In this document: positions 27,849 to 31,350 of the stretch, piece by piece | How positions within the stretch are numbered: position 1 is the stretch's first letter | Layout: the number at the start of each line of letters is the position of its first letter | Program-made: the position numbers and the translations under genes | The notes under the pieces: model-generated | Database searches by the model: none | What the model was told of the DNA's origin: nothing | The model's input: only the letters and a program-made list of their open reading frames with translations | IMG/VR virus record: IMGVR_UViG_3300005611_000090 | Coordinates: 1 to 36,250 of that record | DNA: 36,250 nucleotides | Source of the DNA: a virus | Taxonomy: Duplodnaviria; Caudoviricetes | Strand: one strand, 5' to 3'

Positions 27849-28066
27849 TATTTTGGTTTTATAATCTTGTCTATACTTATACTACCATCTATATTTTTTT
27901 CAACAGTAGCCTCTACTTCCCCGCACATTAATCTTTTATTATTCATTTCCATGTTTCGTGATGCTTCTCTCTTCATCTTAAGACATGTCGATATATCCGG
28001 CTGAATACGGTGCTCTATTAATTCACCACCTATAAATAAACATAATGCAATAACTGTTTGTATCAT
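27848..28066 (-). CDS. Small secreted/membrane-associated protein (72 aa)
   Basis: Short hydrophobic N-terminus, 3 Cys, TAATG-coupled on both sides within the candidate lysis cassette. Confidence 0.55.
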   Translation of the reverse strand: MIQTVIALCLFIGGELIEHRIQPDISTCLKMKREASRNMEMNNKRLMCGEVEATVEKNIDGSISIDKIIKPK

Positions 28067-28446
28067 TAGTGATTACCATTAAGTTTACCAATATTAGCTC
28101 TAACGCTATCTTTTAATTTTTCTGTATCTATTCTTAATCGTTCTACATCCATTTGTAGTCGTTCAATATTAACTCTATTGTTCATCATACCATCAACTCT
28201 TATCGTTAATTTTTCTAATCCTTCTGCTATATGTTCTAGTAACATAAATTGTTCTTGATCAATTGGTTTTTGTGCTGATGCTTCTAATAAGTCTTGTTCA
28301 AATAATTTATTTGCTGTTTCTAGTGCGTTCAATCTTTCAATAACACCAAACGCAAACCACGCGCCAATAACTACCGCTGCGATCAATCCTATTAAATTAC
28401 GTAACGGAAGACCGATACTTGTATTGTCGTCGATTTTTATTGACAT
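28066..28446 (-). CDS. Membrane-anchored coiled-coil protein (i-spanin/holin-like); start likely ATG 28446
   Basis: TM helix LIGLIAAVVIGAWFAFGVI followed by a long heptad-rich region, two genes upstream of the endolysin. Confidence 0.5.
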   Translation of the reverse strand: MSIKIDDNTSIGLPLRNLIGLIAAVVIGAWFAFGVIERLNALETANKLFEQDLLEASAQKPIDQEQFMLLEHIAEGLEKLTIRVDGMMNNRVNIERLQMDVERLRIDTEKLKDSVRANIGKLNGNH

Positions 28447-28571
28447 GATAAACACTCATCAGAATCAGAATCTAATTCTGTTAACGCTTCTTCCTTACAT
28501 TGTTGACTGCAAAATAAATCAAATTCATCTTTTGGTTCAAACTTTTTTTTACATTGTTTACATTGCTTCAT
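28437..28571 (-). CDS. Small Cys-rich protein (44 aa): Zn-ribbon-like motif plus acidic CxxC C-terminus, not in supplied track
   Basis: MKQCKQCKKKFEPKDEFDLFCSQQCKEEALTELDSDSDECLSCQ*. AAGGAG SD upstream. Fills the gap between neighbours. Confidence 0.75.
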   Translation of the reverse strand: MKQCKQCKKKFEPKDEFDLFCSQQCKEEALTELDSDSDECLSCQ

Positions 28572-28761
28572 CGTTGTACTCCTTAAATAGCCAGTTTACG
28601 TATCTTTGCCATAAAGATAATTTTTTGGGTTTTGATTTTAACACTAAAGGTGTACAGCTGCAACTATCACAAATACAACTATCACATTTATTTGTATTTA
28701 AATTATAACCTTTGCCATAACAATGACATGCATGATCACATATTTTACATTTTTTCTTCAT
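28558..28761 (-). CDS. Small metallothionein-like Cys/His-rich protein (start likely ATG 28761)
   Basis: MKKKCKICDHACHC...KCDSCICDSCSC has 9 Cys and 2 His in the first 36 residues. GAGGA SD-like sequence precedes 28761. Confidence 0.6.
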   Translation of the reverse strand: MKKKCKICDHACHCYGKGYNLNTNKCDSCICDSCSCTPLVLKSKPKKLSLWQRYVNWLFKEYNDEAM

Positions 28762-29401
28762 CTTTGTCCTCAATACTATAAAACATTTTATCAGAATCTT
28801 CTGTTACCCAATCACCGCCTTCTGCATCCCAATACGTAGTTTGTACTTTGTAATCGGGCCATTCATTCTCGGTTGTGTAACTATTAACATGCCAAATGAT
28901 TCTGTTGTTTGGCTGCGCGGCGAAGTTGCCGTTTTCTAATTGCATTATGTGAGCACACTTATGTTCTTGTGGAATCTCAGAATGTTCAACGTCTAATATA
29001 TTAGTGTCTGGATGTGCCCAGTCAATAGTAAATAAGTATTGACCTTTGTAAAATTTTTTATCTTTACCTAAAAATTTACCGTTTATACCATCCAACCAAT
29101 CAAAGCAATGCACGCTAGGATAATAACTAAAACAGTTCCACAGTTGTAACTCGTTCGTCTGCATATCCGGCACATCGGCTCGATCATATTGTTTTTGGAA
29201 AAACGCTGAGATAGGCAAACGCCAAAAGCACGCACCATTGGGTAGCATGATGTTAAATAAGAGAGCCCTTCCTGAAATAGAGCTAACACCAAAGATAACG
29301 CATTCACGACTATCGTTCTTATATTTTTCATCCATGTCATAAAGATATTCCCTCCTTATTTTGCAGTAAATGGGTGGTATATTCGCATTTAAATAGGCCA
29401 T
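28745..29401 (-). CDS. Conserved-looking phage hypothetical protein (218 aa)
   Basis: Aromatic-rich globular protein with EHKCAH...GNFAAQPNNRI. GAGG SD. No function recognised. Confidence 0.7.
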   Translation of the reverse strand: MAYLNANIPPIYCKIRREYLYDMDEKYKNDSRECVIFGVSSISGRALLFNIMLPNGACFWRLPISAFFQKQYDRADVPDMQTNELQLWNCFSYYPSVHCFDWLDGINGKFLGKDKKFYKGQYLFTIDWAHPDTNILDVEHSEIPQEHKCAHIMQLENGNFAAQPNNRIIWHVNSYTTENEWPDYKVQTTYWDAEGGDWVTEDSDKMFYSIEDKDEEKM

Positions 29402-29412
29402 AGTTCCTCATA

Positions 29413-31350
29413 TTATTTAATTTCGCCCCAATTAGGACCCTTTTCATAATCAACTTTATTAGGAACTTCTAGATTTACTGCCTGTTCCATTATTTGTTTT
29501 ATTTTATCAGCTTGTGATTCTGATTCAATAGAAAAATCTAATTCATCATGTATTTGTATATGACCTATTAAACCTTCTTTATATAAATCAACCATTGCTT
29601 TTTTAGTCATATCTGCAGCTGATCCCTGAATTAATTTATTTAAAGCTTTATAAGTAAATGCTCTACGTGTTGAATTTTCATGCCAATAATTTTTCTTTGG
29701 ATTACCATCTTTATCTTTTATAATATTACCTTCAAAATCTTTTAAGTGAGGGCCCATTTCTTGTAGTTCTCTCATACGTTCATCATCTTCTGGTGGTACA
29801 TATGTTCCCCAATCTGCACCTCTTAAGATAGGTTCATACTTAGGAAACCTACAACGTCTGCCTAACAATGTTTTAATTTGTCCTCTGGACTCTGCAGCTT
29901 TCATAACTTTATTCATCAACTGTTTAACGAATGGCGCTTGACCGTGATATTTTGCAAATAGTTCTTCTGATTTTTCTTTTGATACACCTAACTCACCTTG
30001 TAGTTTTGCTTTACCCATACCATAAAACAAACCTAGATTAATTGTCTTAGCTTGTGATCTTGGTATTGATGCCATCTCTGCAACTATTTTGTGAAAGTCT
30101 GTTGAAGGATCATTTTCATATGAGTCTGCAATTGTATTTACAGAAGGGAGTCCAAATTTTAATGCATAGTGTGCAACCAATCTTGGTTCCTGTTGCGAGT
30201 AATCAAATGTTCCCCAGTTACAACCTTGTTCAGGTATAAACAATGATCGAAGGAGTGGCCCTGTTTCCGGATCCCTGGCGGGTATCTGCTGTAGGTTTGG
30301 ATTCGAATAACTAAATCGTCCGGTAACAGTTCCACCATCATCCGATCGTATTTGATTGATGTCTGCATGGATTCTGCCATTGTGTTCATGCTTAAAAATA
30401 GTGTCAATAAATGTAGTTCTGACCTTGTTTATTTTTCTAGCTTCTGCTATCATGTTGACTACAGGATGAGCATGATTAGTAATAAAATTTTTTGTAAATG
30501 AAGGAGAGTCCGTCTTTTCAGTTCGGCTATAAGGTAGCTTCAGTTTTTCAAAAACTTTGGCAATGCTTGCTGCAGCCCATATCTGAGTATCTACTCCTGT
30601 TTCTATTTTTATTTGTTGCAATAGGTTTTGTTCTTTTGCTGCCAGTGCTATTTTTAATTGACCGGCTTTTTCAATATCTACCCGCACCCCTAGGTGACGC
30701 ATATCAACTAGACAAGGAAAAAGATCAGTCTCTAAATTAAATATATCTTGAAGATCATCTTCAACAATTACTTTTTTTAATTTGTGCCAAAGTCTTAAAG
30801 TTAGTTCAGCATCTTTTTCACCATAAGCTCCAACTTCCATCGCAGGCATTCTCCACATATCTGCTTTAGGATCCAATCCTCTTTCTTTAGCAGCGTCGTT
30901 TAATCTTGCTTCGCTTTTACCTTCACCTAAATGATGCCAAGATAAAGTATTCAACGTATATGAGAATCTGTTTTCATCTATTAGACTGGCTGCAATCATT
31001 GTATCTACGATTAAACCATTGATTTTTATACCTAAATTACGTATCCAACATACGTCATACATTGCGTTATGAAATATTTTTGTAGCAGGTGATGCACAAA
31101 TATCTTTAAACCATTCTAAAGTTTTCTTTCGATCTAAGTTTGGTCCTTCTTCATGAGCTATTGGAAAGTATCCTTTGTATCCATCTACAGCAACAGCTAT
31201 ACCTACAACTTCACCATTACCGGTGATTGCACCAGAACCAATAGATTTTAAATCAGGATCTCTAGTCTCTAAGTCAATTGCAATTTCATCTGCGTTCCTT
31301 AAATCAGGAAACTCTGTAGGCATGTTCCATTCTGTCTGTGGTACTATCAT
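29413..31350 (-). CDS. polA: Family A DNA polymerase with 3'-5' exonuclease domain
   Basis: Exo motifs IDLET, FHNAMYD and YGEKD. Polymerase motifs TGRFSYSNPNLQQIP, DYSQQEPR (A), RSQAKTINLGLFYGMG (B), IQGSAAD and IHDEL (C). Confidence 0.95.
   Translation of the reverse strand: MIVPQTEWNMPTEFPDLRNADEIAIDLETRDPDLKSIGSGAITGNGEVVGIAVAVDGYKGYFPIAHEEGPNLDRKKTLEWFKDICASPATKIFHNAMYDVCWIRNLGIKINGLIVDTMIAASLIDENRFSYTLNTLSWHHLGEGKSEARLNDAAKERGLDPKADMWRMPAMEVGAYGEKDAELTLRLWHKLKKVIVEDDLQDIFNLETDLFPCLVDMRHLGVRVDIEKAGQLKIALAAKEQNLLQQIKIETGVDTQIWAAASIAKVFEKLKLPYSRTEKTDSPSFTKNFITNHAHPVVNMIAEARKINKVRTTFIDTIFKHEHNGRIHADINQIRSDDGGTVTGRFSYSNPNLQQIPARDPETGPLLRSLFIPEQGCNWGTFDYSQQEPRLVAHYALKFGLPSVNTIADSYENDPSTDFHKIVAEMASIPRSQAKTINLGLFYGMGKAKLQGELGVSKEKSEELFAKYHGQAPFVKQLMNKVMKAAESRGQIKTLLGRRCRFPKYEPILRGADWGTYVPPEDDERMRELQEMGPHLKDFEGNIIKDKDGNPKKNYWHENSTRRAFTYKALNKLIQGSAADMTKKAMVDLYKEGLIGHIQIHDELDFSIESESQADKIKQIMEQAVNLEVPNKVDYEKGPNWGEIK

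What the first reader, a model, noticed from the sequence alone, without database searches (positions are those of the whole stretch)
28437..28571. 44-aa peptide ending in a ribonucleotide-reductase-like C-terminal redox tail (DSDSDECLSCQ)
Seen: an ORF missed by the track, with a good SD, a CxxC-x13-CxxxC Zn-ribbon-like motif, an acidic linker and a terminal ECLSCQ-stop. Established: class I RNR alpha subunits end in an acidic flexible tail with a Cys pair that shuttles electrons from thioredoxin or glutaredoxin to the active site, and many alphaproteobacterial NrdA proteins end in an ECLACQ-like sequence. No RNR gene is in this window. Inference: a stand-alone tail mimic that re-reduces or hijacks host RNR in trans to boost dNTP supply, or decoys thioredoxin. 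It lies just downstream of polA.
Basis: partly seen in the sequence, partly recalled or inferred. Interest (0 to 1): 0.8.

Follow-up and report, generated by a model that had tools for sequence, protein, structure and literature searches.

The report
Pelagiphage copy of host reductase tail
A marine phage of a very abundant group that likely infects SAR11 bacteria encodes a strongly conserved 44-residue protein, predicted to be a zinc finger, whose last six residues are identical to the two-cysteine "recharging" tail of the SAR11 enzyme that makes DNA building blocks, so it likely acts on that host enzyme, which is untested.

Summary
The ORF is real and lies on the minus strand (28437-28571, 44 aa). 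The phage resembles HTVC027P (PolA 75% identical). In 119 viral loci found by the N-terminal motif alone, all 117 complete copies end [SN]DECLSCQ-stop. Codons vary freely, so the protein is selected, not the DNA. Pelagibacteraceae NrdA ends YEECLSCQ-stop (56 of 56 matches); five phage NrdA tails differ, so the peptide matches the host's. New here: a second, unrelated Cys-rich scaffold carries the same kind of tail on a 4-35-residue linker (117 of 117 end CxxC-Q/L-stop; 43 ECLSCQ). Among 48 carrier records each had one CLxCQ gene. No RNR alpha in 92 carrier records (mostly fragments), but the cultured relatives lack both RNR and the peptide. Best reading (0.5): a detached, thioredoxin/glutaredoxin-recharged tail that re-reduces host NrdA. 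A decoy or competitor at the same sites is the main rival (0.3). No binding or activity was shown; the complex prediction never ran. Not found in print in six searches. The scan noted the same idea before on other phage DNA with other hosts' tails.

The parts
28437..28571 (-). 44-aa microprotein gene (P0001, family A)
   Evidence: homologues; codon selection
28579..28584 (-). Shine-Dalgarno-like AAGGAG, 7 nt before the ATG
   Evidence: sequence
28497..28562 (-). Residues 4-25, C4/C7/C21/C25: predicted treble-clef zinc finger
   Evidence: AF2 pLDDT 88-90 for residues 1-30; weak Foldseek hits to YacG, MYND, FCS and ribosomal fingers, E>=2.4; Pfam YacG E=0.006, below cut-off. Zinc binding is inferred.
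28467..28505 (-). Residues 23-35, predicted helix. L33 and D34 are invariant outside the search motif, and the F20-to-stop length is fixed at 25 residues
   Evidence: 98 of 98; C21, C25, K26, E28, A29, L30 were fixed by the search pattern itself
28437..28460 (-). D38-E-C40-L-S-C43-Q44-stop: copy of the host NrdA redox tail (host YEECLSCQ-stop), low-confidence (likely flexible) in the model
   Evidence: invariance; host tail; pLDDT 54-67
28558..28761 (-). Upstream 67-aa ORF: tail-less member of the second (family B) Cys-rich scaffold; overlaps the SD and start of P0001
   Evidence: alignment; profile match E=1e-9
28066..28446 (-). Downstream 126-aa ORF (phrog_20984) whose ATG lies inside the tail codons; context only
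29413..31350 (-). Family A DNA polymerase, 75% identical to that of HTVC027P; marks the start of the variable small-gene island

Best explanation
This gene encodes a conserved 44-residue phage protein ending in the same six residues as the SAR11 class I ribonucleotide reductase alpha subunit, and it likely works as a detached, zinc-finger-stabilised copy of that redox tail: host thioredoxin or glutaredoxin would reduce C40/C43, and the pair would then re-reduce the oxidised active site of host NrdA, likely raising dNTP supply for a phage that probably has no reductase of its own. SHOWN: the gene; protein-level invariance of the terminal DECLSCQ; identity of the last six residues with Pelagibacteraceae NrdA and not with phage NrdAs; the same tail type on a second, unrelated scaffold; no nrdA, nrdB or thioredoxin in the carrier records searched. 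[quoted passage not shown] INFERRED: SAR11 host, zinc binding by C4/C7/C21/C25, expression, contact with NrdA and Trx/Grx, and a stimulatory sign.
For: (1) Anchored on the N-terminal motif only: 117 of 119 loci end [SN]DECLSCQ-stop, and the other 2 are cut by the contig end. (2) In 98 distinct DNA variants D-E-C-L-S-C-Q-stop never changes while Leu and Ser use all six codons; pN/pS 0.08 against 0.35 in the linker (the variants are related, not independent). (3) Host: 56 of 121 Pelagibacterales genomes matched the tail pattern and all 56 read YEECLSCQ-stop. P0273, named Ca. Pelagibacter communis NrdA, ends KEPEYEECLSCQ. Across the class Ala is commoner than Ser (19 against 9 of 30 loci), yet family A always has Ser. 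(4) Five phage NrdAs (four pelagiphage isolates, one uncultured) end CLSCEG, CLACEA, CLACEG (twice) and CLACHA. (5) Second scaffold: 95 of 106 in-frame viral EECLSCQ-TAA hits are family B microproteins, and 36 of these end YEECLSCQ, including the host's Tyr. Without the tail, A and B share only the first CxxC (hhalign 5.4%). Scaffold-anchored B: 117 of 117 complete ORFs end CxxC-Q/L-stop after 4 to about 35 residues. (6) One CLxCQ-stop gene in each of 48 carrier records, 23 A and 25 B. (7) No RNR alpha in 45 + 47 carrier records, 6 of them >=90% complete; no nrdB or thioredoxin in 21; hosts have both Trx and Grx. (8) HTVC027P has no nrd genes and host nrdAB rises 2.5-8.9-fold in infection (PMC12753301), so this group depends on host RNR.
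Against: The gene is dispensable: only 13 of 26 close polA relatives that span the island carry one, and both cultured relatives lack it. Lack of nrdA is a group trait, so it does not single out carriers. Family A replaces the host's invariant Tyr with Ser or Asn. In family B only 43 of 117 tails are ECLSCQ; 74 have other inner residues (ES 28, EV 15, EA 10, others). Of these only [DE]CEACQ was found as an NrdA end in a 151-genome phylum sample, so exact host matching is not universal. Thirty of 33 re-searched Pelagibacterales genomes gave no match to this NrdA, and 5 of 5 checked have class II NrdJ with another end, so the target exists in only part of the order. The native tail is tethered, so a free copy should compete poorly unless it docks (inference). 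Sequence cannot tell a booster from a decoy. The host is inferred from relatedness; a preprint notes other possible hosts for this group.
Confidence: 0.5

Rival explanations
1. Tail decoy or competitor. The peptide mimics the NrdA tail but occupies one of its readers instead of shuttling electrons: thioredoxin or glutaredoxin, the tail site on NrdB or NrdA, or an unknown host protease or defence protein that attacks the NrdA tail. It would thereby tune, inhibit or shield RNR.
For: All the mimicry evidence fits equally. Two unrelated scaffolds and a variable linker suit a passive carrier that displays an epitope. The alpha tail contacts three partners: active site, TrxA and beta (PMC11903788). 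Patchy presence (13 of 26) suits a conflict gene.
Against: Both cysteines are kept in every complete copy of both families, with inner residues relaxed in B, as expected if dithiol chemistry matters. Carriers lack RNR in the records searched and the group leans on host nrdAB, so plain inhibition would likely cost the phage. No tail-targeting defence system is known to me (recalled).
Confidence: 0.3
2. General metal or redox microprotein. All cysteines bind zinc or iron (metallothionein-like), or act as a redox buffer. The tail was captured from nrdA by recombination and is kept as a ligand pair, not as a mimic.
For: Family B has 8 invariant Cys/His scaffold positions plus the tail. Inner tail residues vary in B. 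In hosts the end of nrdA overlaps the nrdB start, as the tail here overlaps the next gene, so a host origin is plausible.
Against: A linker of 4 to about 35 residues is hard to fit with one rigid site. The tail is always terminal and ends in Gln (116 of 117 B; all A). Non-ligand residues D, E, L, S, Q are invariant in A. Four scaffold Cys already complete a treble-clef site and the tail is the low-confidence part in both models (the B model is poor, mean pLDDT 55). Tail-less B scaffolds exist.
Confidence: 0.12
3. YacG-like DNA gyrase inhibitor (the automatic name given to some members).
For: Pfam YacG E=0.006; top Foldseek row is gyrase-bound YacG, E=2.4, probability 0.25; JGI names on 3 listed members.
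Against: Score 16.7 is below the cut-off of 25.5 and covers only the finger. YacG motifs (recalled) occur in 1 of 43 and 0 of 43 members. The same finger recurs as repeats in many unrelated longer proteins. It does not explain the tail or family B.
Confidence: 0.05
4. The tail is a by-product of DNA constraints: overlap with the next gene's start codon and ribosome-binding site.
For: In the window the next gene's ATG lies inside the Ser-Cys codons.
Against: That ATG is absent in 78 of 164 variants, with many different downstream genes, while the peptide is unchanged. Ser uses both TCN and AGY codons.
Confidence: 0.02

Closest known systems
C-terminal redox tail of class I RNR alpha, PRK09102 / NF006577 type (Pelagibacteraceae NrdA)
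   Same: Acidic run, CxxC and free C-terminal Gln; last six residues identical; 36 family B members match eight.
   Different: Detached from the catalytic barrel and fused to a small Cys-rich domain; family A lacks the host's Tyr; activity untested.
In-trans action of the yeast Rnr1 C-terminal CX2C tail, and its inhibitor Sml1 (recalled; the paper was not held)
   Same: Precedent that a tail can recharge an active site on another polypeptide, and that a small protein can regulate that step.
   Different: There the tail stays on a full alpha subunit within the dimer; Sml1 is not a tail copy; neither is viral.
Phage auxiliary nucleotide-metabolism genes (nrdA, nrdB, thioredoxin/glutaredoxin; e.g. 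HTVC019P-type pelagiphages)
   Same: Likely same purpose: dNTP supply in infection (PMC12753301).
   Different: No catalytic or thioredoxin fold; 135 bp instead of about 3 kb; carriers lack nrdA, nrdB and Trx in the records searched.
YacG (PF03884) and treble-clef fingers (MYND, FCS, ribosomal)
   Same: CxxC...FCSxxC plus helix, small size, acidic tail.
   Different: Below the Pfam cut-off, YacG motifs absent, ends in the NrdA tail.

Membership tests
Class I RNR alpha subunit | Catalytic barrel (PF02867, NF006577) | tested here: not met
   44 aa; no NCBIfam hit; no PF02867 in the record
Class I RNR alpha redox tail (works-like) | CxxC at the extreme C-terminus after an acidic, flexible stretch | tested here: met
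   117 of 117 complete copies; net charge -7 over the last 18 residues; pLDDT 54-67
Class I RNR alpha redox tail (works-like) | Sequence match to the likely host's NrdA end | tested here: met
   ECLSCQ-stop in 56 of 56 Pelagibacterales matches; Tyr at -8 not matched in family A
Class I RNR alpha redox tail (works-like) | Reduced by Trx/Grx and re-reduces the active-site disulfide | not testable with these tools
   needs enzyme assays
Class I RNR alpha redox tail (works-like) | Docks in the NrdA active site | not tested
   complex prediction could not be queued
YacG gyrase inhibitor | PF03884 above gathering cut-off | tested here: not met
   16.7 bits against 25.5
YacG gyrase inhibitor | RPFC and DLxxW motifs (recalled) | tested here: not met
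   1 of 43 and 0 of 43
Treble-clef zinc finger | CxxC knuckle, loop, CxxxC at a helix start | tested here: inconclusive
   Motif and confident AF2 core fit; all Foldseek hits E>=2.4; metal binding untested

The most novel reading that the evidence does not exclude
A major group of SAR11 phages has replaced a whole reductase operon with a ~45-residue detached redox tail, mounted on two unrelated Cys-rich scaffolds, that recharges the host ribonucleotide reductase in trans: a new class of auxiliary gene that supplies only the moving part of a host enzyme.
Probability: 0.45. Interest if true: 0.92.

Novelty: categorically new. Interest (0 to 1): 0.8.

Why it matters
HTVC023P-type phages are reported as the most abundant known marine phage group (passages). 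HTVC027P has no nrd genes and depends on host RNR. A 135-bp gene that taps the RNR re-reduction step would be a new route of metabolic hijacking that auxiliary-gene screens miss (no Pfam family above cut-off, no NCBIfam hit, PHROG hits only to the finger at E>=4e-4). It is also a natural reagent for an open enzymology question, how the flexible alpha tail is recharged and whether it can work detached (PMC11903788 calls tail dynamics unresolved). If it is a decoy instead, it points to an unknown host factor that reads the NrdA tail. The tail sequence may also help predict hosts.

Tried and rejected
Complex prediction of tail-less host NrdA with the peptide: never queued, the queue was full, so there is no result either way. 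tblastn of the peptide against 50,697 phage records gave only weak finger-like hits, E>=0.1. The cultured relatives HTVC023P and HTVC027P have neither family. PDB sequence search with the family profile: no hit under E=0.029. ESM Atlas: 29 of 30 hits unnamed, one weak cluster with 14% YacG. Family B: 0 of 33 members hit Pfam at E<=0.1, and its AF2 model is poor. YacG was not found in 5 Pelagibacteraceae genomes. RNA-library contigs from 4 runs cover the ORF but cannot show transcription. Promoter scan: 15 sites against 16.2 in shuffles. Five hits in cellular genomes are short contigs in unrelated MAGs or SAGs; I read them as phage DNA (70 of 85 loci at most share any one window gene; these five were not examined one by one) and did not use them for host assignment. 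An ECLACQ-TAA viral scan found mostly NrdA ends and only 2 microproteins in 90 loci. The nrdA anticorrelation was judged weak. Gene-overlap constraint rejected. Literature searches for a phage or stand-alone tail mimic found nothing relevant. PMC9599517, on 80 uncultivated pelagiphage genomes, has no occurrence of ribonucleotide, nrd, thioredoxin, glutaredoxin, zinc or YacG in its main text; its supplements were not read and might annotate these genes.

Full report
OBSERVATION. The ORF is on the minus strand, 28571 to 28437, 44 aa. The plus strand is closed. An AAGGAG lies 7 nt upstream. The window is a 36,250-bp virus record, about 60% complete, without RNR alpha. Its PolA is 75% identical to that of Pelagibacter phage HTVC027P, with the same gene order: primase, helicase, small gene, polA, phrog_3704 gene, small-gene island, M15 peptidase. 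All 20 blastn hits of the region were Pelagibacter phages. A SAR11 host is therefore inferred, not shown.

CONSERVATION. Protein search gave 32 homologues with invariant DECLSCQ. The viral scan gave 352 confirmed relatives among 599 pattern hits. Both searches favour the tail, so I rescanned with a DNA pattern for the N-terminal FCxxxCK[EQ]EAL only (22 of 64 parts of the collection scanned). Of 119 loci, 113 end SDECLSCQ-stop, 4 end NDECLSCQ-stop and 2 are cut by the contig end. Among 98 distinct DNA variants the F-to-stop length is always 25 residues and D-E-C-L-S-C-Q never changes. Leu and Ser each use all six codons; pN/pS is 0.08 against 0.35 in the linker (related sequences, not independent events). 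The next gene's ATG overlaps the tail in the window, but it is absent in 78 of 164 variants, which have many different downstream genes. Selection is thus on the peptide.

HOST TAIL. ECL[S/A/T/G-type]CQ-stop occurs in 127 of 301 genomes of the class sampled around an alphaproteobacterial MAG, against 3 control matches. That count includes unpublished G045 and the centre genome, whose match is the phage gene itself. Of 30 loci fetched, 29 end long or RNR-motif frames; the middle residue is Ala in 19 and Ser in 9. Eight of 8 full proteins scanned are PRK09102-type NrdA. In the order sample around a Pelagibacteraceae genome, 56 of 121 matched a pattern with an extra leading constraint, and all 56 read YEECLSCQ-stop. 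P0273, named Ca. Pelagibacter communis NrdA, ends KEPEYEECLSCQ. Of 33 non-matching genomes re-searched, 3 had this NrdA and 30 did not (unpublished G413 is one of the 3, and no other claim rests on it). Five of 5 checked from the 30 carry a 1,200-aa class II NrdJ with a different end. Five phage NrdAs end CLSCEG, CLACEA, CLACEG, CLACEG and CLACHA. So the peptide matches the host tail, not those phage tails. It lacks the host's invariant Tyr.

A SECOND SCAFFOLD. Tail-anchored scans showed other carriers. Of 120 DECLSCQ-TAA loci, 105 were canonical and 3 of the other 15 had a different Cys-rich N-terminus. Of 106 in-frame EECLSCQ-TAA hits, 95 were this family B (CxxCxCxCHC...CxCxxC), 10 were NrdA and 1 was unclear. 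Thirty-six of the 95 end YEECLSCQ, 32 of them EIEYEECLSCQ beside the host's EPEYEECLSCQ. With tails removed, A and B align only over the first CxxC (probability 5.4%). Anchored on the B scaffold alone (one subgroup motif; 20 of 64 parts scanned), 117 of 117 complete ORFs end in CxxC plus Q (116) or L (1), after 4 to about 35 residues. Inner residues vary: LS 43, ES 28, EV 15, EA 10, ET 8, others 13. [DE]CEACQ-stop ends a second group of proteobacterial NrdA-like proteins (21 of 151 genomes matched; 18 of 19 translated frames show the RNR motif), but ES, EV and ET ends were not confirmed there. B therefore either has other hosts or relaxed inner positions. The window's own upstream ORF (28558-28761) is a tail-less B scaffold.

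DISTRIBUTION. Each of 48 long carrier records (23 A, 25 B; 5 at least 90% complete) has one CLxCQ-stop gene; the only second match reads CFTCQ. That pattern is blind to ECExCQ tails, but a wider rule found at most one terminal-CxxC microprotein per locus in 80 polA loci. Both families sit mostly in the island after polA and sometimes near the head genes. Of those 80 loci, 26 span the island: 12 carry A, 1 carries B and 13 carry none. RNR alpha was found in 0 of 45 and 0 of 47 carrier records (6 at least 90% complete), while a viral NrdA control rang. NrdB and thioredoxin were found in 0 of 21. HTVC023P and HTVC027P lack both RNR and the peptide, so this is a group trait and not a real anticorrelation.

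STRUCTURE. AF2 on 43 sequences gives mean pLDDT 80.8: 88-90 for residues 1-30, a helix at 23-35, and 54-67 for the tail. Foldseek hits are weak (E>=2.4) and mostly small zinc fingers, YacG first. YacG membership fails on score and motifs. The same finger recurs as repeats in many longer proteins, so it is likely a common phage module used as a carrier. The complex with NrdA could not be predicted.

MECHANISM. In class I RNR the alpha tail Cys pair reduces the active-site disulfide and is recharged by thioredoxin; the tail can contact the active site, TrxA or beta (PMC11903788, passages). A terminal CXXC is in 1,737 of 2,022 class I sequences (PMC9531940, passages). HTVC027P has no nrd genes and host nrdA and nrdB rise 3.1-8.9 and 2.5-5.8 fold at 9-15 h (PMC12753301, passages). 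Pelagibacteraceae genomes have Trx and Grx. I commit to the shuttle: a folded carrier presents a host-like dithiol that Trx/Grx load and NrdA unloads (0.5). Retention of both cysteines in every complete copy and the phage's likely need for host RNR favour it. A decoy or competitor at the same sites is the main rival (0.3), because a free tail must compete with a tethered one and the gene is patchy. A metal or redox-buffer role (0.12), gyrase inhibition (0.05) and an overlap artefact (0.02) follow. That the tail mimics NrdA in some way is about 0.8.

KNOWN AND NEW. It works like the NrdA tail but is not an RNR subunit and not a YacG. In-trans tail action in yeast Rnr1 is recalled only; that paper was not held. 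Six searches found no report of a phage-encoded stand-alone tail (listings only), in a library that lacks most subscription papers. PMC9599517 has no relevant term in its main text (supplements unread). PMC9221315 and PMC8102999 (passages) added nothing specific. The preprint 10.1101/2019.12.14.876532 (passages) gives the group's abundance and warns of other possible hosts. The scan's own notes hold 13 similar findings in other phages with other hosts' tails (8 shown, unchecked, seen after my reading was set). None matched either family by sequence. What this locus adds is the SAR11 tail type, the codon-level proof and two interchangeable Cys-rich scaffolds.

VERDICT. Real, strongly selected, host-matched in family A, and without a named family. 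Function is inferred. Interest 0.8.

Noticed in passing
window 28558-28761 (-): Tail-less family B scaffold ending in a Trp-containing, probably amphipathic segment; similar C-termini are seen in HTVC027P gp12 (L256:8640-8798) and P0357. It sits directly before family A genes in 5 of 8 loci drawn, suggesting tail shuffling between neighbours.
   Followed up: partly
L491-L597, L692-L811, P0333-P0359: Family B microproteins (about 45-65 aa, 10 Cys plus His, no Pfam hit), about 390 stored stretches estimated for one subgroup motif; tails vary ECLSCQ, ECESCQ, ECEVCQ, ECEACQ.
   Followed up: yes
L383-L387 against L388-L393: The Pelagibacterales sample splits into a class I NrdA group and a class II (B12) NrdJ group of about equal size in this draw.
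   Followed up: partly
L388:2357-2366, L235:3157-3166: In Pelagibacteraceae the nrdB start codon lies inside the last codons of nrdA, and the Glu-Glu codons double as its ribosome-binding site; about half of the phage genes use the same overlap for an unrelated gene.
   Followed up: partly
window 28745-29401 (-): Conserved 218-aa gene after polA with conflicting labels (PHROG 3704 'ferredoxin', GenBank 'PurM') and no Pfam hit; both labels look doubtful.
   Followed up: no
L286, L345, L358, L363, L412; P0067, P0109, P0182: Divergent family A variant with a shorter CxxC second knuckle; L412 and the family B locus L435 end ECLACQ.
   Followed up: partly
L396-L400: Pelagiphage NrdAs have very short linkers between the catalytic core and the tail Cys pair, compared with about 30 residues in the host.
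   Followed up: no
L081-L085: The gene occurs on short contigs binned into unrelated archaeal and bacterial MAGs or SAGs, probably phage DNA.
   Followed up: no
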